Shown here in pieces: positions 25,820 to 34,789 of a stretch of DNA of 64,000 nt. Both the position numbers and the translations under genes were made by a program. Below the pieces are notes generated by a model. It was not told the origin of the DNA. It was given only the letters and a program-made list of their open reading frames with translations, and ran no database searches. The stretch is taken from positions 59,723 to 123,722 of IMG/VR virus record IMGVR_UViG_3300044557_000151; one strand, 5' to 3'. Numbering within the stretch: the first letter of the stretch is position 1; each line of letters starts with the position of its first letter. This DNA is from a virus. Taxonomy: Duplodnaviria; Heunggongvirae; Uroviricota; Caudoviricetes.

Positions 25820-26400
25820 TGGCGAAATTTATATATCGTTATGCCGCGATGTCGGCTGGCAAGTCCTTAGATCTATTGAAAGTTGCGCATAATTACAAGG
25901 ATCAAGGACGAGAAGTCCTGCTAATGACTCCGGCAATTGACACGCGCAATGGTGAAGGGGTTATCAGCAGCCGCGTTGGATTACAATCAAAAGCAATCGC
26001 GTTATCTGTAGAGGATTCACCAGTAAAGATGTTGAATGCTCTAAATAATCCATTACCGGATTGCATCCTTGTTGATGAGGCACAATTCCTGACGAGCGCA
26101 CAAGTAGATGACTTCGCCTGGATTGTTGATTTTTTGAACATTCCGGTGATTTGCTACGGACTTAGAACTGATTTTCAAGGCAATCTTTTTGAGGGCAGTC
26201 AAGCGCTAATGTGTTTAGCTGACAGCATTGAAGAAATCAAAACAATCTGCGCTAAATGCAATCATAAGGCAATTATGAACCTTCGAACCGTAAATGGGAA
26301 ACCAGTTACTGAAGGAGATCAAATTGTCATTGGCGATACCGAATATATCAGCCTTTGTCGCAAACATTGGAAAGAAGCTACAAATTCTTTGCCATTTTAG
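25819..26400 (+). CDS. tdk: thymidine kinase
   Basis: P-loop AAMSAGKS. C-terminal zinc ribbon CAKCNHKAIMNLR...LCRKHW. Typical 193-aa Tdk. Confidence 0.9.
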   Translation: MAKFIYRYAAMSAGKSLDLLKVAHNYKDQGREVLLMTPAIDTRNGEGVISSRVGLQSKAIALSVEDSPVKMLNALNNPLPDCILVDEAQFLTSAQVDDFAWIVDFLNIPVICYGLRTDFQGNLFEGSQALMCLADSIEEIKTICAKCNHKAIMNLRTVNGKPVTEGDQIVIGDTEYISLCRKHWKEATNSLPF

Positions 26401-26401
26401 G

Positions 26402-26464
26402 TAGACAAACACTAATGCGTTTAGTATACTAATACTCGTAAGTTAAACAAACACTAATGTGTTT
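26402..26464 (+). promoter_or_regulatory. promoter-operator unit
   Basis: TAGACA-N17-TATACT at 26402..26430. Second palindrome copy AAACACTAATGTGTTT at 26449..26464. Confidence 0.6.
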
Positions 26465-26579
26465 ATTGGAGGGTGCTAGTCGAGAAAACTCGTTACTTTA
26501 GTGACGAGATGAATCAACGTATTGGGCAATCACCGGTGTAGTGTTCTAATAGCGTACCATAGGGTACACGGGAAAGGAG

Positions 26580-27731
26580 ATGATAAATATTGTTTTAAAA
26601 GGCATTAAACTAAGAATATACCCTAGCAAAGAGCAACAGCTAAGTATAAAGCTTAACTTTGGATATAACCGATTTGTTTGGAATCAGATGCTGGGTATGT
26701 TACAAGAAAGATATGCTAATAACCCTAAGCTATCTTTTCCTAGCGCCTTTACTTTAAATAACTTGTTACCAACAATGAAGATAGAATATTCTTGGCTTAA
26801 CGATGCTGAAAGTCGTAGCTTACAAATAACCTGTAAAAACTTAGTTGATGCTTACAAGAAGTTCTTTAAGACCCATAAGGGGTTTCCTAAGTTTAAATCA
26901 AAGAAGTATCCTAAGCAAAGCTACCAAACAAATTCTACAATAAAGCTAAAGGCCAACGAAGTTAAGTTTCCGAAATTAGGCTATATGAAGTTTAAAGGTA
27001 GTAGCAAAAAACTAAATGAGATTACTAAGATTAAGCTAGGAACTATTAAACTTACACCTACTGGTAAATACTATCTTGTACTGATTGCAGAGTGTGAAAA
27101 CCAAGCACTCCCTAAATCAGGAAATCAAGTAGGTATTGATATGGGGTTAGCTGATTTGATGATTACTAGTGACGGTGTAAAGTATCCTACTTTAAGATTT
27201 GACAAGATACTAGCTAAGAAAAAACGTTACTGGGAAAAGCGTTTAGCTCGTAGACGACTTCAAGCTCAAAAAGAGATTGCTTGGGATAAGCATAATAAGG
27301 TATTAAATCCTAGGGAACTTTCCAACTTTAAAAACTATCAGAAAGCAAAGCTAATGGTTGCTAAGTATTCAGAAAAAATAGCTAACCAGCGTAAAAACTA
27401 CCTTCATATGCTTTCAAAACAGCTTGTATCACAATATGATGTGATTAAGATAGAAGATTTGAAAACCAAGAATCTTCTTAAGAATCATAAGTTATCTAGA
27501 GCAATAGCTAATGCAAGTTGGAAAGAACTTAGAAGACAACTAGAGTACAAGTGCTTATGGTATGGGAAACAGTTAGTCACTGTGAACCCTAGAAAAACCT
27601 CACAAATATGTTCTAGTTGTGGCTATGATGACGGTAAGCATACCTTAGATATTAGAGAGTGGACATGTCCCAAGTGTGGTGTTCACCACGACAGGGACAT
27701 TAACGCGGCTATCAATATCTTAAATGCTTAA
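26580..27731 (+). CDS. tnpB: TnpB RNA-guided endonuclease
   Basis: N-terminal KLRIYPSKEQ...FGYNRFVWNQ. RuvC-I GIDMG and RuvC-II IEDLKTK. C-terminal CSSCG...CPKCG zinc finger followed by RuvC-III DRDINAAINIL. Confidence 0.9.
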   Translation: MINIVLKGIKLRIYPSKEQQLSIKLNFGYNRFVWNQMLGMLQERYANNPKLSFPSAFTLNNLLPTMKIEYSWLNDAESRSLQITCKNLVDAYKKFFKTHKGFPKFKSKKYPKQSYQTNSTIKLKANEVKFPKLGYMKFKGSSKKLNEITKIKLGTIKLTPTGKYYLVLIAECENQALPKSGNQVGIDMGLADLMITSDGVKYPTLRFDKILAKKKRYWEKRLARRRLQAQKEIAWDKHNKVLNPRELSNFKNYQKAKLMVAKYSEKIANQRKNYLHMLSKQLVSQYDVIKIEDLKTKNLLKNHKLSRAIANASWKELRRQLEYKCLWYGKQLVTVNPRKTSQICSSCGYDDGKHTLDIREWTCPKCGVHHDRDINAAINILNA

Positions 27732-27854
27732 ATGACTAGTGTGGGCTGGAACAGCCCTTAGTAAATAGTCGTAACCGCTACACCTCATTCAACGAATGAA
27801 GTGCAAGTCAGCGATGTTCCTAGAAGCTCGGTCATTCATGGCCGAGTAGTTCAC
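27732..27854 (+). ncRNA. putative omega-RNA scaffold / IS right end
   Basis: Structured segment 3' of tnpB with hairpins. Conserved with the other two right-end copies (GTTCC-AGAAGCTCGGTCATTCATGGCCGAGTAGTTCAC). Confidence 0.45.
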
Positions 27855-28015
27855 TCAGCAGTCCATCATTCATTCAAAATCTTACCTTTGACCTTATGAA
27901 TGATGGCTACTATGTTCACTACTTTGGAATTCAAGGTGAAGTTGGGATTCCATTCTCTGTCGGCGGTAAGCGGGGCGTTAAATTTAGCGTCTCAAGTATG
28001 GTTTAGGAGGCTATC

Positions 28016-28204
28016 ATGAGGATTCGAGATTTCTTGGATTATGTGATTGGTAAGAACGTGAGTGAAGATGCTGAATTAAATGTCATCAATAAATCTGGTG
28101 AGATGGAAAAGGCTAAATTCATTATTGACGGGGAGAATGGCGAAAAGATTGCATTCTATCCTTGCTCCTTTGCTACATATGAACAACAAAAAGGGGAACT
28201 ATGA
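28016..28204 (+). CDS. hypothetical protein
   Basis: ORF track 62 aa. RBS GGAGG upstream. Confidence 0.35.
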   Translation: MRIRDFLDYVIGKNVSEDAELNVINKSGEMEKAKFIIDGENGEKIAFYPCSFATYEQQKGEL

Positions 28205-28359
28205 AACCTAAACGTAAGCACTACGGTCATGGTACGAAACGATACGACAAACAAAAATTAGCCAAGCTTGTTGATCGTGTGTCAAAAGAAGATAAGAAAG
28301 AGATTGCCCCAATCAAACGCTGGCGTTTGTGGTGGCGCATGGTTGAGGGGAAATATTAA
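28201..28359 (+). CDS. hypothetical small basic protein
   Basis: 52-aa ORF not in the track (below 60 aa). ATGA overlap upstream and TAATG overlap downstream, so it fits the gene chain. Confidence 0.3.
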   Translation: MKPKRKHYGHGTKRYDKQKLAKLVDRVSKEDKKEIAPIKRWRLWWRMVEGKY

Positions 28360-28634
28360 TGATTAGCAAACAGAAACTTCAAGAGCAGGCCGATCGTATT
28401 CGAAATAACCGAATCAAAAGTATGCAACAACGAATTGAAACCCGAATGGTGAATGCTTTGGCGGAAGATCGAAAATCAATCGTTATCTACCGAAAAGAAG
28501 ACTCCGATTTATATACCGCGCTCAGCTTAGGGCTCATCTCATCAGACCCATATCGTATGGAACCATGCCTCAAGAATGGTAACGATGGACTCGTAATTTA
28601 TTTCGACTTGGATGGTGAAGACGATGGAAACTAG
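28359..28634 (+). CDS. hypothetical protein
   Basis: ORF track 91 aa. Confidence 0.4.
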   Translation: MISKQKLQEQADRIRNNRIKSMQQRIETRMVNALAEDRKSIVIYRKEDSDLYTALSLGLISSDPYRMEPCLKNGNDGLVIYFDLDGEDDGN

Positions 28635-28941
28635 CGCGACTCTATTAGAAAAAACGATTAGCGGAATTGAATCTGATTATCGCGAAGGGATTAAAGAGTT
28701 GATGATCATCTTAAGCGATGCTGCACGAGTGCACGCGACTCGGGAGACGATTATCTTTGCAGAGGAATCGGTATCTGACTTTCCACATGCGATTGACTTC
28801 CTGAAAAGTCGGTGTGCAGAACAATATCTAGGATATTACGGATACAGGTTCTATCAAGAAAACGATTGGGTAAAGAAGCACTTCTGGAACATTGCACAGC
28901 CAATCCATGTTGGGTGCACCATTAGTTGGCCGGTTGAGTAG
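28621..28941 (+). CDS. hypothetical protein
   Basis: Frame of ORF 28612. ATG at 28621. Confidence 0.4.
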   Translation, partial: TMETSATLLEKTISGIESDYREGIKELMIILSDAARVHATRETIIFAEESVSDFPHAIDFLKSRCAEQYLGYYGYRFYQENDWVKKHFWNIAQPIHVGCTISWPVE

Positions 28942-28973
28942 TTTATAATATTGAGATTTTAGGAGGCGCCACG

Positions 28974-29282
28974 GTGAGTACATCAAGTATGCCAAGCACA
29001 CAAACTGGGATTATGGAATTAGCTGATGCGTATTTGCGCGAACGCTATCGTTTAAAGAGTCTGCACAAAAAGCCAAGTGATTTGAACATGTTCCAGTGGA
29101 CGCGCAAATGCCTATGCGTTACTCAAAAACAAATGGCGGACATATTGAATGTCTCTGTGGCCTCTCTCAAGGCTTATGAGTATGGGAGCCGAAATCCAGG
29201 GGAAGACGCATGGAAACGTCTCTCGGACGTCACCCACATGTCAGTTGCGGATTTATTAGAACTGGAAAACAAGAATCGGTAA
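28974..29282 (+). CDS. XRE-family helix-turn-helix protein
   Basis: VTQKQMADILNVSVASLKAYEYGSRNP is a canonical HTH_XRE segment. Lies 30 bp upstream of the second tnpB. Confidence 0.6.
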   Translation: MSTSSMPSTQTGIMELADAYLRERYRLKSLHKKPSDLNMFQWTRKCLCVTQKQMADILNVSVASLKAYEYGSRNPGEDAWKRLSDVTHMSVADLLELENKNR

Positions 29283-29311
29283 AAGTTTGATTTTGTAAAG
29301 GAGGTGAGGCC

Positions 29312-30448
29312 GTGGATACCTATCAAGCATACAAAGTCCGTATCTATCCCACTCAATTACAAGCTGATATGATTATGCAATTTATCGGAAATAGTCGATT
29401 CGTGTATAACCAAATGCTTGCCATGCAGGCTGATCGTTACAAGAACGGCGGAAGGTACGTTGGATACATGGCAATGTCCAACCTAGTCAAACCACTCAAA
29501 CAAGAGTACGCATTCCTCAAGCTGTCACCATCTCAATCGCTACAACAGGCGTGTGCGGATTTGAACGCCGCTTTCCAGAACTTCTTTGCTAAGCGCGCAG
29601 ACTATCCACGGTTCCACTCCCGAAAAGGTGCGAAGCAATCTATGCGGGTCATGCAGGCTTGTTCCATCATCGCTTCGGGAGTCAAGCTGCCAAAGCTCGG
29701 TATCATGCGTTTCCGTTATGGATATAGTCTCGACCCGTCACTTAAAATTCGGCAAGTGACCGTCTCGTACACCTCATCTCACAAGTTTTACGCCAGCATC
29801 TTAGTTAAATGCGAAAAACAAGCATTGTCTAAAACTGGTGAACAAGTGGGATTGGATATGGGCGTGGCTGACTTAGCTATCCAGAGCAATGGCAAGAAAA
29901 TTCCAACTCAGAAGCATGACGAGCTGGAACACTCTCTTCACATTTGGCAACGTAAGTTGGCTCGCCGTAGGGAGTTAGCCAAGGCGGAAATCGCTAAATC
30001 CAAGCACTATGACCACACTGAATTGACGCTTGATGACTTCTCCAATTACAACAAGGCGAAAATAATGGTTGCTAAGTTGCATGAGAAGATTGCTAACAGG
30101 CGGAAGGATTACCTACACAAGACGACAACCAAATTGGTGCGGGAATATGACCTTATCGCTATGGAAGATTTGAGGACCAAGAATATGGTCAAGAATCACC
30201 ATTTGGCGAAGTCAATTACCAATCAAGGCTGGAACATGTTTAAAACCATGCTTCAGTACAAGTGCGAGTGGTATGGGAAGACAATAGTGGTGGTAAACCC
30301 GCGGAATACCAGTCGCGTATGTTCTGATTGTGGTGTGGATAGCGGCAAGAAACCACTAGATGTGCGGGAATGGACGTGTCCAGGATGTGGTACATGGCAT
30401 GATCGTGATGTGAATGCAGCACAAAACATTTTGAAATTAGCAGTGTAA
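29312..30448 (+). CDS. tnpB: TnpB RNA-guided endonuclease
   Basis: KVRIYPTQLQ...GNSRFVYNQ. RuvC-I GLDMG, RuvC-II MEDLRTK. Zinc finger CSDCG...CPGCG. RuvC-III DRDVNAAQNIL. Confidence 0.9.
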   Translation: MDTYQAYKVRIYPTQLQADMIMQFIGNSRFVYNQMLAMQADRYKNGGRYVGYMAMSNLVKPLKQEYAFLKLSPSQSLQQACADLNAAFQNFFAKRADYPRFHSRKGAKQSMRVMQACSIIASGVKLPKLGIMRFRYGYSLDPSLKIRQVTVSYTSSHKFYASILVKCEKQALSKTGEQVGLDMGVADLAIQSNGKKIPTQKHDELEHSLHIWQRKLARRRELAKAEIAKSKHYDHTELTLDDFSNYNKAKIMVAKLHEKIANRRKDYLHKTTTKLVREYDLIAMEDLRTKNMVKNHHLAKSITNQGWNMFKTMLQYKCEWYGKTIVVVNPRNTSRVCSDCGVDSGKKPLDVREWTCPGCGTWHDRDVNAAQNILKLAV

Positions 30449-30568
30449 CTGATAAACAAGGGCAGGGACTGTCCGTGGTAATAGAGTCGAACCTCTTGAG
30501 GTGCTCATGTGTAACACACAAAGTTCGATGCTCCCAGAAGCCTGTCATTTTAATGACGGGTGGTTCAC
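30449..30568 (+). ncRNA. putative omega-RNA scaffold / IS right end of the second tnpB element
   Basis: Hairpin-rich segment ending in GGTGGTTCAC. Architecture parallels the other right ends (CCCAGAAGC + hairpin + GTTCAC). Confidence 0.45.
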
Positions 30569-30616
30569 TTCCGCTACGTTGGGTATGACGTCAAAGATCA
30601 TTATAACGCTTTGGGC

Positions 30617-30808
30617 GAAGTAGACGGTTACGTCATCTCATGGAATAACGAAAAGGGACGGTAGATAATGAAATTTGAACCATATCAACATGTACAACGT
30701 ATGGGCGTTGACGAAGTAGACGGTTACGTCATCTCATGGAATAACGAAAAGGGACGGTAGATAATGAAATTTGAACCATATCAACATGTACAACGTATGG
30801 GCGTTGAC
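30617..30808 (+). repeat. perfect 96-bp tandem duplication spanning RBS and start of the RNA ligase gene
   Basis: 30617..30712 equals 30713..30808 exactly. A 12-bp junction GAAGTAGACGGT recurs at 30809. Copy 1 creates a decoy 30-codon ORF (30668..30760). Confidence 0.9.
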
Positions 30809-31696
30809 GAAGTAGACGGTATCCTGGATGGTAATGTTGTCATTCAACCGAAGATTGATGGAACAAACGCATCAATCTGGTTAGACCAAAATGGAACCTT
30901 GGGATTTGGAAGTCGTCGGCGAAAGCTGACTTTAGAAAAGGACAACGCGGGGTTCATGACCTTCTTCACCTCTGAAATGGCTCAAGGCGACGCCGCCAAA
31001 TTACAAGAGTATCTCGAAGATAACCCAGATTACACCATTTACGGCGAATGGTTAGTCCAACATGTCGTTCATTACAAAGATAACGTTTACCATCAACTGT
31101 TCATTTTCGACGTCTACGACAATGCGAATGAACGATATCTCAACATCGAAGAATATCAAGATGACCTTCAAGAGTTGGGCATGTCGTATGTGGTTGTGAT
31201 CCCGGCGATTTACAAAGGTAAAGCAACAAACGAGATGATTGTAAAGCTCGCTAAGGATAACCACTATCTTCTGGAAAAAGACCAGGTCGGTGAAGGCGTT
31301 GTAGTTAAACGATATGACTTCGTGAATCGATATGGGCGTACCACTTGGGGTAAATACGTGCTTGCAGATTTCAAGAAGCGCAAACATGATGGACGTAATT
31401 ACTCTCAGGATGTTGATGGTATTGGGAACAGTTATGCAGAACCTATTGCTAAATTCATTACACCAGCGTTTGTCGAAAAAGAGTTCATTAAGTTTAAAGA
31501 GCGATTGGATCACCCGTTTAGTGGAAAAGATATTCCGGCATTGCTAGGGACCGTGTATCACGAATTTGTTTCAGAAGAGACGTGGCATTTCTTGAAAGAA
31601 CTTGGGAAGAGTCCGGTTGTCAACTTTGGAACTGTACAGCGCGAATCGTACAAACAAATTAAGCGGTGTTTGCCTGTCTTATTCGGCCAAGCATAG
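30764..31696 (+). CDS. ATP-dependent RNA ligase-like nucleotidyltransferase
   Basis: Motif I KIDGTNA (ligase/capping-enzyme lysine adenylyltransferase). 310 aa. RtcB lies nearby. Confidence 0.5.
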   Translation: MKFEPYQHVQRMGVDEVDGILDGNVVIQPKIDGTNASIWLDQNGTLGFGSRRRKLTLEKDNAGFMTFFTSEMAQGDAAKLQEYLEDNPDYTIYGEWLVQHVVHYKDNVYHQLFIFDVYDNANERYLNIEEYQDDLQELGMSYVVVIPAIYKGKATNEMIVKLAKDNHYLLEKDQVGEGVVVKRYDFVNRYGRTTWGKYVLADFKKRKHDGRNYSQDVDGIGNSYAEPIAKFITPAFVEKEFIKFKERLDHPFSGKDIPALLGTVYHEFVSEETWHFLKELGKSPVVNFGTVQRESYKQIKRCLPVLFGQA

Positions 31697-31703
31697 GAGA
31701 TTT

Positions 31704-32066
31704 ATGAAAATTAAATTAATTGATGTAACAACCGAAGAGGAATACATGGAACTTGGCACATGCGAACTCTGCTTCAGCTATGGCGAAGAAGAGATCCCAA
31801 CCTTTCATTTCGAGAAAGACGACGGAACCAAGTTTGATGTTGAGGCTTTCTATATTGAATGGGGTTGCCCGTATTCTCTCTATGTTGACAACGCAATTAC
31901 CTTTGCTGGGTATCTTGCAAGTTTAGACTTCGACCCTGACTTCGACAAACAAATCAATGCTAAAGGTTATAACGAGTGGGACGATTACGCGTGGCTTAGT
32001 AATTTGCTCCGCGATTATGCCGAGTCCACATTCTGCAAAGATCCAGAATACGATCCATCGTGGTAA
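31704..32066 (+). CDS. hypothetical protein
   Basis: ATG 31704 follows AGGAGA (ORF track frame began at 31602). Confidence 0.45.
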   Translation: MKIKLIDVTTEEEYMELGTCELCFSYGEEEIPTFHFEKDDGTKFDVEAFYIEWGCPYSLYVDNAITFAGYLASLDFDPDFDKQINAKGYNEWDDYAWLSNLLRDYAESTFCKDPEYDPSW

Positions 32067-32089
32067 AAGTACGATTTTAGGAGGTTAAC

Positions 32090-32395
32090 ATGATTACACC
32101 AAGAGGGTTAATGGACAAGGTTAAGGTTCGAAAATTAGAACTTGATAACCAATTTGAGCAAACGTATCTGGATCAAAAAGATGCAATGGAATTATTGCTA
32201 GAAGAACTGTTAGTTGATGCCATTGCTCGTAATGGTAGAGGTGTATGGATTGATGAATACGGTAATAGTTCATTGTATAACTTCCTTGTAAAATACTCCG
32301 ATCGCATTGATGGATATTCGTTTGAAATCGACGACGTAACATGTGATATGTATGTAACGCCAATCTTGGACGACGATTCGTGGAATGAATATTAA
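32090..32395 (+). CDS. hypothetical protein
   Basis: ORF track 101 aa. RBS AGGAGG upstream. Confidence 0.45.
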   Translation: MITPRGLMDKVKVRKLELDNQFEQTYLDQKDAMELLLEELLVDAIARNGRGVWIDEYGNSSLYNFLVKYSDRIDGYSFEIDDVTCDMYVTPILDDDSWNEY

Positions 32396-32412
32396 CTGAA
32401 AGCTGGTACGTC

Positions 32413-33603
32413 TTGGAAATCAAAGGTAAATACGGCGTTGCAAAAGTAATGACCGAGAATATTGAGCAAACCGCTCAAGAACAGTTGAAAACGTTACTGG
32501 ATCAGCCATACATGAAGGGCAACGATGTTCGAATCATGCCGGATGTTCACGCTGGTAAAGGCGCAACAATTGGCACTAGCATCAAGTTAAACAACGACTT
32601 CATTTGCCCAAATACGGTTTCGGTCGACCTGGGCTGTGGAATGCACGTATTCAAGCTTGACATCGATCATGTAGACTTTGAAAAGTTGGATCAGTTAATC
32701 AATAACGAAGTACCATCTGGTTTCAACGTTTACGAAAATCCGATTCGTAAATTCAGACAAATCAATTATACTCGCATTACTCATCTGAAAAACTACGATC
32801 ACATCTTGAACAGTATTGGAACTCTTGGTGGTGGGAACCATTTCATTGAAATCGATCAGGATACCGATGGTGTTTACTACCTGGTAATTCATTCAGGCTC
32901 ACGCAACTTGGGCGTTCAAGTTGCCAACTATTATCAACGCTTAGCAATTTCGAATCAGTCAAAGAATGTTGAGTTACGCGACGCTGTGATTGCAGCATGT
33001 AAAGAGGTTGGACAAGAGCGTCAGATTGAGGGTTTGTTGAATACGTTGAAACAAACGAATCCAATCATTCCAGACGAGTTGGCTCCTGTCAGCGGCCAAG
33101 ATGCTGAAGACTACTTATACGACGTATCGATTGCACAAGAGTTTGCAGCGTTGAATCGTTTGACGATGGCCGAAACAATTATCTACGGCATGAATTGGCA
33201 AGTTGATTCAGACTTTGATTCAATTCACAACTACATTGATATCGATAATCGAATTATTCGCAAAGGTGCTACCGATGCCTCGTTGGGGAAACAATTGGTT
33301 ATCCCATTGAATATGCGTGATGGCTCGATTATTGCAACTGGCATGGGTAACTCTGACTGGAACTACTCAGCTCCACATGGTGCAGGTCGCGTAATGTCTC
33401 GCAAGAAGGCGTTTGAAACAGTTGCCATGAACGACTTTACCAAATCGATGGAAGGTATCTACTCGACTTCTGTTGTCAAAGAAACGATTGATGAATCACC
33501 GTTCGCATACAAGCCTGCACAAGAGATTATTGATGCAATCAGTGAGAAGACTGTCCACATCGATAAGGTGATTAAACCGGTTTACAACTACAAGGCACAT
33601 TAA
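32413..33603 (+). CDS. rtcB: RtcB-family RNA 3'-phosphate ligase
   Basis: MPDVHAGKGATIG, GGGNHFIEID and APHGAGR motifs. Start uncertain: TTG at 32413 or ATG at 32449. Confidence 0.85.
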   Translation: MEIKGKYGVAKVMTENIEQTAQEQLKTLLDQPYMKGNDVRIMPDVHAGKGATIGTSIKLNNDFICPNTVSVDLGCGMHVFKLDIDHVDFEKLDQLINNEVPSGFNVYENPIRKFRQINYTRITHLKNYDHILNSIGTLGGGNHFIEIDQDTDGVYYLVIHSGSRNLGVQVANYYQRLAISNQSKNVELRDAVIAACKEVGQERQIEGLLNTLKQTNPIIPDELAPVSGQDAEDYLYDVSIAQEFAALNRLTMAETIIYGMNWQVDSDFDSIHNYIDIDNRIIRKGATDASLGKQLVIPLNMRDGSIIATGMGNSDWNYSAPHGAGRVMSRKKAFETVAMNDFTKSMEGIYSTSVVKETIDESPFAYKPAQEIIDAISEKTVHIDKVIKPVYNYKAH

Positions 33604-33604
33604 G

Positions 33605-33931
33605 ATGATGAATATTATTTGTGTAGGAGTTGTAGTTGTCATGCTGGGTTTATCCTGTGCCAAGATTGTTGATATGAAGTGTCACCACCAATGTCCATAT
33701 CACCATAGACAATCAAACGGAAAGTGTGAACCATTCCCAAGCGATTATGACTACGGTGAAGGCTACATGTCGCTGTATCAGATCATCGAAACTGGAAGTG
33801 GTTATGTACTAGACGTTCATAGCCAATCGTATCTAGGAGACGATCATATCGATATTGACGAAAACCAAGTTCCGATTACTCACTGTCCACTATGTGGCGG
33901 ATATCTATGGAGGTCACGAAGTAAGTGTTAG
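33605..33931 (+). CDS. Cys-rich small protein
   Basis: CHHQCPYHH...CPLCGG. N-terminal hydrophobic segment. Confidence 0.4.
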   Translation: MMNIICVGVVVVMLGLSCAKIVDMKCHHQCPYHHRQSNGKCEPFPSDYDYGEGYMSLYQIIETGSGYVLDVHSQSYLGDDHIDIDENQVPITHCPLCGGYLWRSRSKC

Positions 33932-34248
33932 AAACAAAACGAGAGATTTTCGACTTCTTAGTCGATCATACTATCCAGATTGCTCAACAAGTCGAAGTAG
34001 GCGAAACCAGCAAGCGTTCTGAAGAGTTTCGGCGCGATATGAACGCACTGTGGGACAGCGCTGACGATCAACGAAAAGGGTGCCCACATTGCTTAAAAGG
34101 TATGCCGTTAATCGACGATGCTTGGAATTATATCGGCATTGAACGTGAGACTAAGCGGATGTTCTTCAACAGCAATAAGGCTGTTGGACATGACGAAGTG
34201 GGTATTGTTCATATCAAGTATTGTCCTGAATGCGGGGCGAAGCTGTGA
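33925..34248 (+). CDS. small zinc-ribbon protein (paralog family)
   Basis: CPHCLKG ... YCPECGAKL. Confidence 0.45.
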   Translation: MLETKREIFDFLVDHTIQIAQQVEVGETSKRSEEFRRDMNALWDSADDQRKGCPHCLKGMPLIDDAWNYIGIERETKRMFFNSNKAVGHDEVGIVHIKYCPECGAKL

Positions 34249-34436
34249 GCGAAACAAAAGAAGACGTGTTCGAAGCCGCAATCGATTTAGTCAAAACTTG
34301 GTGGCCGTATCCCGGTAATGCCATTGACCAGGCCGACGATCTGATTCGCCGATGGAAGAATGCCCCCTACCATAAGCCATTGATTTCATATTGTTACGAC
34401 CAAGACGGGGAGCCGACTCAGGTGGAGATTTCATGA
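34230..34436 (+). CDS. small protein of the ETK-DVF paralog family
   Basis: N-terminus SETKEDVFEAAIDLV matches the N-termini of the 34433, 38070 and 39490 proteins. Confidence 0.4.
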   Translation: MRGEAVSETKEDVFEAAIDLVKTWWPYPGNAIDQADDLIRRWKNAPYHKPLISYCYDQDGEPTQVEIS

Positions 34437-34789
34437 AAGAGACCAAAGAAGATGTATTCCAAAAGCTACTAGATGAATACTGTAAAGACGAGGCGCGAAT
34501 CGACACCTTAGTGTATGAACCAGATCAGCACATTCCAGATCTCGATCGCGAGTATTTTATGAAGCGATATGAGGAGGCAAAACAGGGCGATTCCAAATGC
34601 CCATACTGCCATAGTGACGGGCACACTCGTTGGGATAATAGATCGGTGTGGGGGTCAAAAGAGATTCTTGACTGTTATGGAGAATCCAACAATCTGTTTA
34701 TCAACCTCAGTAGCAAAACTCTGTTGGAAGGTTACGCGATGAGTGAATTTGAGATTTACTACTGTCCGATGTGCGGACGCAAATTATAA
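34433..34789 (+). CDS. small zinc-ribbon protein (paralog family)
   Basis: MKETKEDVFQKLL... CPYCHSDGH ... YYCPMCGRKL. ATGA overlap with the upstream gene. Confidence 0.45.
   Translation: MKETKEDVFQKLLDEYCKDEARIDTLVYEPDQHIPDLDREYFMKRYEEAKQGDSKCPYCHSDGHTRWDNRSVWGSKEILDCYGESNNLFINLSSKTLLEGYAMSEFEIYYCPMCGRKL

What the first reader, a model, noticed from the sequence alone, without database searches (positions are those of the whole stretch)
30617..30820. Perfect 96-bp tandem duplication covering the RBS, start codon and first 19 codons of the RNA ligase gene, immediately beside an IS right end
30617..30712 and 30713..30808 are identical, and each copy is bounded by the 12-mer GAAGTAGACGGT, seen three times. 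The upstream copy creates a decoy ORF (MKFEPYQHVQRMGVDEVDGYVISWNNEKGR*) ahead of the true gene. Zero divergence implies a very recent event by slippage or unequal exchange on the 12-bp repeat, possibly repair after TnpB cleavage at the adjacent element boundary at 30568. It may also act as a translational decoy or coupling device for the ligase, or it may be an assembly artefact.
Basis: seen in the sequence. Interest (0 to 1): 0.5.

Follow-up and report, generated by a model that had tools for sequence, protein, structure and literature searches.

The report
Recent 96-bp tandem duplication in phage
A phage genome carries a real, very young 96-base tandem duplication of the start of its RNA ligase gene, made by misalignment between two short repeats that its relatives already have; it is an ordinary mutation with no sign of a function.

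Summary
Window 30616..30820 is a perfect 2.1-copy array of period 96, and the 13-mer CGAAGTAGACGGT occurs three times. Six close relatives (ligase 96-98% identical) are all single-copy. All six already carry the 12-13-nt repeat twice, 96 bp apart: once in the 3' end of an upstream 107-aa gene and once in ligase codons 15-19. The duplication is therefore a lineage-specific, microhomology-mediated event. Both copies share a spacer variant (TAGATA) that no relative has, so it is younger than the split from every sampled relative.

It is not an assembly artefact. An independent k=31 assembly of SRA run SRR16378546 breaks at exactly the two positions the duplication predicts, 30645 and 30791. I predicted the second position before looking it up.

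The neighbouring element is a TnpB/omega-RNA cassette whose right end is at 30568. It has no left end and has replaced the 5' two-thirds of the 107-aa gene. A relative, L024, has a related cassette at the same site without the duplication.

Nothing supports a function for the 30-codon chimeric upstream ORF. Conservation, predicted start-site accessibility and RNA folding are all negative. A TnpB-related or right-end-related trigger is possible, but only weakly hinted.

The parts
30616..30711 (+). Copy 1 of the 96-bp unit. It holds the last 16 codons and stop of the truncated 107-aa gene, the ligase ribosome-binding site, an ATG and ligase codons 1-15.
   Evidence: 100% identical to copy 2.
30712..30807 (+). 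Copy 2 of the 96-bp unit. It carries the start of the full-length ligase gene.
30616..30628 (+). 13-nt microhomology CGAAGTAGACGGT, first occurrence. It is ancestral and encodes EVDG near the C-terminus of the 107-aa gene.
   Evidence: Present at the same place in all 6 relatives.
30712..30724 (+). 13-nt microhomology, second occurrence. This is the novel junction of the duplication.
   Evidence: The junction context GTTGA|CGAAGTAGACGGT|TACGTC is absent from all relatives and from IMG/VR.
30808..30820 (+). 13-nt microhomology, third occurrence. It is ancestral and covers the last base of ligase codon 15 plus codons 16-19 (EVDG).
30668..30760 (+). Chimeric 30-codon upstream ORF: ligase residues 1-19 joined to the last 11 residues of the 107-aa protein. 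Its TAG stop lies 3 nt before the true ATG.
   Evidence: The reading frame follows from the sequence.
30764..31696 (+). RNA ligase gene, 310 aa, intact.
   Evidence: PF09414; 98% identical homologue P0001.
30569..30664 (+). Remnant 3' end (31 codons plus stop) of a 107-aa gene that is intact in relatives.
   Evidence: Intact copies: L022 391..714, L023 455..778, L025 2190..2513.
30569..30588 (+). Predicted omega-RNA guide and target sequence, TTCCGCTACGTTGGGTATGA, directly 3' of the right end.
   Evidence: Position is inferred from the known TnpB architecture.
30449..30568 (+). Right end and omega-RNA scaffold of TnpB cassette 2, ending in GGTGGTTCAC.
   Evidence: conserved structure, 12 of 33 pairs with compensatory changes. 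No Rfam family match.
29312..30448 (+). TnpB gene, 378 aa, GTG start.
   Evidence: PF12323, PF01385, PF07282; full-length match to the ISDra2 TnpB structures 8bf8/8exa, E=1e-59, with the LDMG, MEDL and HDRD catalytic-site motifs present.
29278..29303 (+). Left junction. This is the intergenic and Shine-Dalgarno (SD) region of the 107-aa gene, fused through the shared AAAGGAG to the SD of TnpB. No left-end hairpin is present.
   Evidence: Left-end hairpins are present in element 1, L188, L189 and bacterial copies.

Best explanation
This is a real and very recent tandem duplication made by misalignment between two pre-existing 13-nt direct repeats 96 bp apart. The misalignment could have been replication slippage, template switching or unequal exchange. 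One repeat lies in the 3' end of a small upstream gene and the other in codons 15-19 of the RNA ligase gene; both encode EVDG in the same frame.

The product is repeat-84 bp-repeat-84 bp-repeat. It leaves the ligase gene intact and places a second copy of its ribosome-binding site, ATG and first 19 codons upstream. That copy is fused in frame to the old stop codon of the upstream gene, giving a 30-codon ORF that ends 3 nt before the true ATG.

The event happened in a lineage where a left-end-less TnpB/omega-RNA cassette had already destroyed the upstream gene, so duplicating that gene's tail costs nothing. Shown: the structure, the single-copy ancestral state, the pre-existing microhomology, the youth of the event and support from read k-mers. 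Inferred: the misalignment mechanism itself, and that the duplication is selectively neutral or nearly so.
For: 1. The array is perfect and unique in the window, and the 13-mer occurs three times against 0.06 expected.
2. Six relatives with ligase 96-98% identical (L005, L006, L022, L023, L024, L025) are all single-copy. Each has CGAAGTAGACGG(T/C) twice at a spacing of 96. A 58%-identical relative, L007, has neither the 107-aa gene nor the repeat.
3. The duplication period equals the spacing of the ancestral repeats, and the junction holds exactly one copy of the repeat. This is the signature of short-homology recombination.
4. The 96-nt unit differs from every relative at 3-5 positions. Three of these lie in the stop-ATG spacer (TAGATA versus TAATCA or TAATTT). 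The two copies differ at none.
5. Logan contigs from SRR16378546 are 100% identical to the window. They end at 30645 and start at 30791, exactly where a k=31 graph branches if the duplication junction is present. The in-silico single-copy sequence has no branching 30-mer. Logan uses 31-mers and discards k-mers seen only once (PMC12424806).
6. In single-copy form, the repeat pair is one of only 8 close direct-repeat pairs of 13 nt or more in the window.
Against: No reads could be inspected, so the copy number (2 or more) and the fraction of the population carrying the duplication are unknown. SRR16378546 may be the same library as the source JGI metagenome. In that case it is an independent assembly but not an independent sample. 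Neutrality is inferred from absence of evidence. The location 48 bp from a TnpB right end may not be a coincidence (see rivals).
Confidence: 0.8

Rival explanations
1. The misalignment was triggered by the adjacent TnpB/omega-RNA cassette. One route is repair of an RNA-guided double-strand break during homing into an element-free co-infecting genome: a right-hand break end resected to the first 13-mer anneals to the donor's second 13-mer. The other route is replication stalling at the right-end hairpin. Linkage to the homing cassette could then carry the duplication to high frequency.
For: The duplication starts 48 bp after the right end, about 28 nt beyond the expected cut zone. TnpB is full length with the catalytic-site motifs present, and the omega-RNA scaffold is conserved with covariation. 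Element-free relatives carry TTTAC plus a near-perfect target. The locus holds two further rearrangement junctions within 1.6 kb: loss of the left end and gene 5' part at a shared SD sequence, and absence of an 87-aa gene. In 164 other TnpB loci (846 kb), the only two young tandem duplications (98% identity or more, period 40 or more) both lie within 350 bp downstream of the TnpB ORF (L091 and L162). This gives a post-hoc P of about 0.01.
Against: L024 has a related cassette at the same site and is single-copy. The duplication is not at the predicted cut. The right end finishes in TTCAC, not TTTAC, and single-base changes to the target-adjacent motif abolish cleavage in the tested TnpB (PMC10055086), so self-cleavage is unlikely. 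Short-homology duplications arise spontaneously without nucleases. The enrichment test is post hoc, rests on n=2, and one of the two cases (L162) is a duplication of the right end itself.
Confidence: 0.2
2. The duplication is adaptive. The TnpB cassette removed translation of the upstream gene, whose stop lies 3 nt before the ligase ATG. The new 30-codon ORF would restore termination-reinitiation coupling, or act as a decoy or leader that tunes ligase expression.
For: The stop-to-start geometry of the ancestral gene pair is reproduced exactly (TAG ATA ATG versus ancestral TAA TCA ATG). The ligase SD (AAAGGGA) is weak compared with the AAGGAGG in front of TnpB. A tandem repeat of this kind should be lost easily by recombination, yet it was assembled as the consensus.
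Against: It occurs in only one lineage. L024 carries a related cassette without it. Predicted unpaired probability of the true start region is the same with and without the duplication (0.49-0.54 versus 0.51). The region has no unusual structure (z=0.02). The upstream ORF depends on the same weak SD. Zero divergence fits youth at least as well as selection.
Confidence: 0.1
3. The duplication is an assembly, scaffolding or library artefact, and the real genome is single-copy.
For: The source is a metagenome contig: the identical ligase and TnpB proteins are on record only from one 123,722-bp JGI contig. The junction was not found in IMG/VR. No reads were available.
Against: A second assembler (Logan, k=31) on SRR16378546 produced contig ends at exactly 30645 and 30791. 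These are the only two positions predicted by the duplicated form and are not predicted by the single-copy form. The second position was predicted first and then found. Logan drops k-mers seen once. An overlap-concatenation artefact would have no reason to have a period equal to the spacing of the ancestral 13-mers.
Confidence: 0.04

Closest known systems
Tandem duplication by recombination or slippage between short direct repeats. From memory: Edlund & Normark 1981 for a 12-bp homology at E. coli ampC; Albertini et al. 1982 for the reciprocal deletions; T4 rII duplications and deletions.
   Same: Two direct repeats of about 12-13 nt flank the unit in the ancestor. The product is repeat-unit-repeat-unit-repeat with a single repeat at the junction. 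The copies are perfectly identical.
   Different: Nothing essential differs. This case is small (96 bp), lies in a phage genome assembled from a metagenome, and happens to span a gene start, so it creates a chimeric upstream ORF.
IS200/IS605-family TnpB/omega-RNA elements (IS1341-type) and TnpB-driven homing (Karvelis 2021 and Altae-Tran 2021 from memory; Meers et al. 2023, PMC10055086).
   Same: The neighbouring cassette has a full-length TnpB, a structured right end and omega-RNA, and a right boundary abutting a sequence that in element-free relatives follows a TTTAC motif. TTTAT and TTTAC flank related bacterial copies.
   Different: Cassette 2 has no left-end hairpin and no target-adjacent motif on its left. 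It begins at the SD of the gene it truncated, so TnpA-type transposition looks impossible and only recombinational homing could spread it. The duplication is outside the element and is not a target-site duplication, which this family does not make.
Intronless homing and co-conversion by free-standing homing endonuclease genes in T4-like phages (SegF, SegB; reviewed in PMC13565253).
   Same: A nuclease gene sits between conserved phage genes, is present or absent among close relatives at the same site, and has flanking sequence differences near its target.
   Different: Here the nuclease would be RNA-guided. No homing has been shown, and the link to the duplication is conjecture.
Translational coupling by termination-reinitiation, and short leader ORFs.
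   Same: A short ORF ends 3 nt before the start of the downstream gene, as the ancestral upstream gene did.
   Different: It is not conserved, is a by-product of duplication, and has no predicted structural effect.

Membership tests
Short-homology (microhomology)-mediated tandem duplication | Head-to-tail copies with no intervening sequence | tested here: met
   Period 96, 2.1 copies, 100% match, 0 indels.
Short-homology (microhomology)-mediated tandem duplication | Single-copy state in close relatives | tested here: met
   L005, L006, L022, L023, L024 and L025 are all single-copy.
Short-homology (microhomology)-mediated tandem duplication | The short direct repeat pre-exists at both ends of the unit, with spacing equal to the duplication period | tested here: met
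   CGAAGTAGACGG(T/C) occurs twice, 96 bp apart, in 6 of 6 relatives.
Short-homology (microhomology)-mediated tandem duplication | The junction is present in sequencing reads and not created by the assembler | tested here: met
   Indirect test. The k=31 Logan contigs of SRR16378546 break at 30645 and 30791, as predicted only by the duplicated form. The reads themselves were not seen.
IS200/IS605-family TnpB element (the neighbouring 'IS') | TnpB with HTH, OrfB/RuvC and zinc-ribbon domains | tested here: met
   PF12323, PF01385 and PF07282. E=1e-59 to ISDra2 TnpB structures.
IS200/IS605-family TnpB element (the neighbouring 'IS') | Right end with subterminal hairpin and omega-RNA scaffold, with a sharp boundary against an empty site | tested here: met
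   Boundary is GTTCAC|TTCCGC versus TTTAC|TTCCGC in relatives.
IS200/IS605-family TnpB element (the neighbouring 'IS') | Left end with subterminal hairpin, preceded by the target-adjacent motif | tested here: not met
   Window 29278-29303 is the SD region of the truncated 107-aa gene, and TnpB starts 8 nt later. There is no hairpin and no TTTAY motif. Element 1, L188, L189 and bacterial copies do have the hairpin followed by ATGAATC-like sequence.
IS200/IS605-family TnpB element (the neighbouring 'IS') | A TnpA (Y1 transposase) available in cis or in trans | not tested
   The window was not scanned for Y1 transposases.
Functional leader ORF or translational-coupling device | Conservation of the arrangement among relatives | tested here: not met
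   Absent from all six relatives, including L024, which carries a related cassette at the same site.
Functional leader ORF or translational-coupling device | Measurable effect on downstream translation | not testable with these tools
   Only predicted accessibility could be computed, and it is unchanged.

The most novel reading that the evidence does not exclude
The duplication is a repair scar, or a hitch-hiking marker, of RNA-guided homing. On this reading a left-end-less TnpB/omega-RNA cassette acts as a free-standing, RNA-guided homing endonuclease gene in large Lactobacillaceae phages. It cuts element-free co-infecting relatives at TTTAC+TTCCGCTACGTTGG..., and repair at nearby microhomologies produces local rearrangements such as this 96-bp duplication, loss of the left end at a shared SD, and the duplications near right ends in L091 and L162.
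Probability: 0.12. Interest if true: 0.6.

Novelty: new member of a known kind. Interest (0 to 1): 0.22.

Why it matters
The duplication itself matters little. It is a textbook short-homology tandem duplication caught very young, useful mainly as a clean natural example with the ancestral state documented in six relatives.

Two things have wider use. First, contig-end positions in an independent k=31 assembly can confirm or reject a suspected tandem duplication without access to reads. Second, the locus shows a TnpB/omega-RNA cassette that has lost its left end, sits at the same site in two related phages and is absent from five others whose target sites are intact or nearly so. That is the population pattern expected of a homing element among phages, and it would be worth testing directly.

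Tried and rejected
- megablast of the locus against 50,697 GenBank phages found no match. tblastn found only ligases of 39% identity or less.
- IMG/VR holds no close relative of the ligase (40% or less) and no exact match to the junction.
- Exact look-ups failed for the full 310-aa ligase, for P0121 and for the 30-aa and 34-aa small ORFs. This is explained by the source contig being withheld and by the Logan contigs breaking inside the repeat.
- Rfam found no family at E of 1 or less in 26000-31500.
- The promoter and terminator scan of 28900-31800 found nothing above shuffles and nothing inside the duplication.
- An insulating or unmasking role was rejected. Unpaired probability of the true start region is 0.49-0.54 with the duplication and 0.51 without, and the fold z-score is 0.02.
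- Overlap concatenation by the assembler was rejected. The period equals the ancestral repeat spacing, and the independent k=31 break points match.
- A target-site duplication of the IS was rejected. This family makes none, and the duplicated segment lies 48 bp outside the element and is single-copy in L024.

Full report
**What is there.** The window reads as a phage genome. Nearly all long ORFs are on the + strand, and the neighbourhood encodes an RNA ligase (PF09414) and RtcB (PF01139). Tandem Repeats Finder reports one array at 30616..30820: period 96, 2.1 copies, 100% matches, no indels. It is the only long-period array in the 64 kb. The repeat finder gives the copies as 30616-30711 and 30712-30807.

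The boundary repeat is a 13-mer, CGAAGTAGACGGT. It sits at 30616, 30712 and 30808, three matches against 0.06 expected from shuffles. Each copy holds four things:
- the last 16 codons and stop of an upstream reading frame;
- a weak Shine-Dalgarno (SD) sequence, AAAGGGA;
- an ATG;
- the first codons of the ligase.

The upstream copy therefore gives a 30-codon ORF (30668..30760) whose TAG lies 3 nt before the true ATG at 30764.

**Source and relatives.** The locus has no near match among GenBank phages or IMG/VR. The protein database holds a ligase sequence identical to the window's (P0121) and the identical TnpB (P0126). Each is recorded from a single 123,722-bp JGI contig, evidently the withheld source. 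Five Logan contigs and one JGI contig carry ligases 96-98% identical: L005, L022, L023, L024, L025 and L006. TnpB relatives of about 50% identity are concentrated in Lactobacillaceae and in large Lactobacillus phages, so the host is probably a member of that family.

**Ancestral state.** All six relatives are single-copy across this stretch. In five of them a 107-aa gene ends ...GEVDGYVISWNNEKGR*, with its stop 3 nt before the ligase ATG. All six carry CGAAGTAGACGG(T/C) twice, exactly 96 bp apart. One copy is in the tail of the 107-aa gene; the other begins at the last base of ligase codon 15 and runs through codon 19. Both encode EVDG in the same frame. A 58%-identical relative (L007) has neither the upstream gene nor the repeat.

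The window's structure, repeat-84 bp-repeat-84 bp-repeat, is exactly what misalignment between those two repeats produces. In single-copy form this pair is one of only eight close direct-repeat pairs of 13 nt or more in the window.

**Age.** The 96-nt unit differs from every relative at 3-5 positions. These include a three-base change in the stop-ATG spacer (TAGATA versus TAATCA or TAATTT). Both window copies carry all of these changes and differ from each other at none. The duplication is therefore younger than the split from every sampled relative.

**Artefact test.**
- A cluster look-up of the window's TnpB found a second member on a Logan contig from SRA run SRR16378546.
- That contig, L190, is 100% identical to window 27825-30645 and stops 30 nt into the first repeat copy.
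- Logan assemblies use 31-mers, discard k-mers seen once, and keep each 31-mer only once (PMC12424806).
- In a k=31 graph the duplicated sequence has a 30-mer with two predecessors starting at 30616, so a contig from the left ends at 30645. It also has a 30-mer with two successors ending at 30820, so a contig to the right starts at 30791. The in-silico single-copy sequence has no branching 30-mer anywhere in 30000-31400.
- I predicted a right-hand contig starting at 30791, carrying a ligase that lacks its first nine codons, and looked up that 301-aa product. It is on record from the same run, at the very end of a 7,294-bp contig, and is 100% identical to window 30791-34696.
- The left end of L190 (27825) lies 29 nt before the right end of TnpB element 1 (27854). 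This is the same behaviour at another repeat boundary and validates the reasoning.

Junction k-mers therefore exist in reads. An overlap-concatenation artefact is also implausible because the period equals the ancestral repeat spacing. What remains unknown is the copy number, the allele frequency, and whether SRR16378546 is the same library as the JGI assembly.

**The neighbouring element.**
- TnpB (29312..30448) has the three Pfam domains. It aligns end to end with ISDra2 TnpB structures (E=1e-59) and the catalytic-site motifs are present.
- 30449-30568 aligns with the 3' flanks of related TnpB genes and folds into a conserved structure, with compensatory changes in 12 of 33 pairs. No Rfam family matches.
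- The right boundary is exact. Element-free relatives read TTTAC|TTCCGCTACGTTGG..., while the window and L024 read ...GTTCAC|TTCCGCTACGTTGG....
- Related bacterial copies are flanked on the left by TTTTAC or TTTAT and have a left-end hairpin followed by ATGAATC.
- Cassette 2 has no such left end. Window 29278-29303 is the intergenic and SD region of the 107-aa gene as seen in L006, L023 and L025. It runs through the shared AAAGGAG straight into the TnpB SD and GTG. So about 229 bp of the 107-aa gene, together with the element's left end, are missing.
- L024 has a related cassette (85% nt identity over the compared stretch) at the same site, without the duplication.

**Function.** Nothing points to one.
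- The arrangement is confined to one lineage.
- Predicted unpaired probability of the true start region is 0.49-0.54 with the duplication and 0.51 without.
- The region folds no better than shuffles, z=0.02.
- No promoter-like or terminator-like site lies in it.
- The 30-aa product stops before ligase motif I (KIDG, residues 31-34) and before the Pfam domain (residues 24-199).

The one suggestive feature is that the new ORF reproduces the ancestral stop-ATG geometry, which could restore termination-reinitiation coupling lost when the cassette truncated the upstream gene. L024 manages without it.

**A TnpB trigger?** The duplication begins 48 bp after the right end, about 28 nt beyond where TnpB would cut a matching target. 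Self-cleavage is not expected: the right end finishes in TTCAC rather than TTTAC, and in the tested TnpB single-base changes to the target-adjacent motif abolish cleavage (PMC10055086). Cleavage of element-free co-infecting relatives is plausible. Four of five carry TTTAC plus a target with one mismatch at position 15, and L006 has a perfect target but TCTAT. A break end resected to the first 13-mer could mis-anneal to the donor's second 13-mer and yield this duplication.

As a crude test I ran TRF over 164 other TnpB loci (846 kb). The only two young duplications (98% identity or more, period 40 or more) both lie within 350 bp downstream of the TnpB ORF. One is L091, 102 bp x2. The other is L162, 41 bp x2, which duplicates the right end itself. 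With about 11% of the sequence in that zone, P is about 0.01. The test is post hoc and rests on n=2. I treat it as a lead, not a result.

**Verdict.** This is a real, very recent, short-homology tandem duplication: a known kind of mutation with its ancestral state well documented here. No function is demonstrated. The more interesting biology is next door, in the left-end-less TnpB cassettes that appear to behave like homing elements among related phages.

Noticed in passing
window 29278-30568: TnpB cassette 2 has no left end. Its SD and GTG follow directly on the SD region of the 107-aa gene it truncated, so about 229 bp of that gene plus the element's left end are missing. An 87-aa gene present in L025, L023, L022 and L006 between the HTH gene and the 107-aa gene is also absent from the window.
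   Followed up: partly
window 26476-27854 (TnpB 26580..27731): This is a second, different TnpB element, with a left-end hairpin (CTCGTTACTTTAGTGACGAG followed by ATGAATC) and a right end finishing in GTAGTTCAC at 27854. It is absent from L025. In the window it replaces the first 157 bp of a 101-aa gene (L025 77..382), again starting right after that gene's SD. Logan contig L190 starts at 27825, which is the right end minus 29 nt, so the last 30 nt of this right end are multi-copy in that sample.
   Followed up: partly
window 6551, 8656, 9005, 15761, 15803, 21423, 26201, 26407, 26449, 39807, 39844, 50467, 50509, 56304, 56341: The 16-nt palindrome AAACACTAATGTGTTT occurs 15 times with 2 mismatches or fewer, against 0.09 expected. 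The sites often come as pairs 37-42 bp apart. It looks like a repeated operator or promoter-associated site of this phage.
   Followed up: partly
L005, L022, L023, L025, L006 at the site equivalent to window 30569-30588: Every element-free relative differs from a perfect TnpB target. Four have TTTAC plus a G-to-T mismatch at guide position 15. One (L006) has a perfect 20-nt match but TCTAT in place of TTTAC. This could be escape from RNA-guided cleavage or simply ancestry.
   Followed up: partly
L162 4117-4198; L091 2977-3182: Other young tandem duplications lie just downstream of TnpB genes. L162 has a perfect 41-bp x2 duplication that appears, by position and hairpin, to be the end of the right end itself. 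L091 has a 102-bp x2 duplication (98% identity) about 330 bp after the ORF.
   Followed up: partly
L186, L188, L189; L106/L107 (IMGVR_UViG_2974511964_000001); IMGVR_UViG_3300044557_000107: TnpBs 73-79% identical to cassette 2 sit at other sites in related phage contigs, for example after a RecA-like gene and between two very large (>1,000-aa) genes. Some large phage contigs carry two or three copies. In L106 and L107 the shared upstream sequence looks by eye like a promoter (TTGACA...) rather than a left-end hairpin.
   Followed up: no
window 32084-32408: There is a 325-bp insertion/deletion polymorphism between the ligase operon genes and RtcB. It contains a 101-aa ORF (32090..32395). The ORF is present in the window, L024 and L191 but absent from L005, L022 and L023.
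   Followed up: no
window 30764-33603: RNA ligase (PF09414) and RtcB (PF01139) lie in one gene cluster, separated by two small ORFs of unknown function. This is a likely RNA (tRNA) repair module, conserved in all relatives.
   Followed up: no
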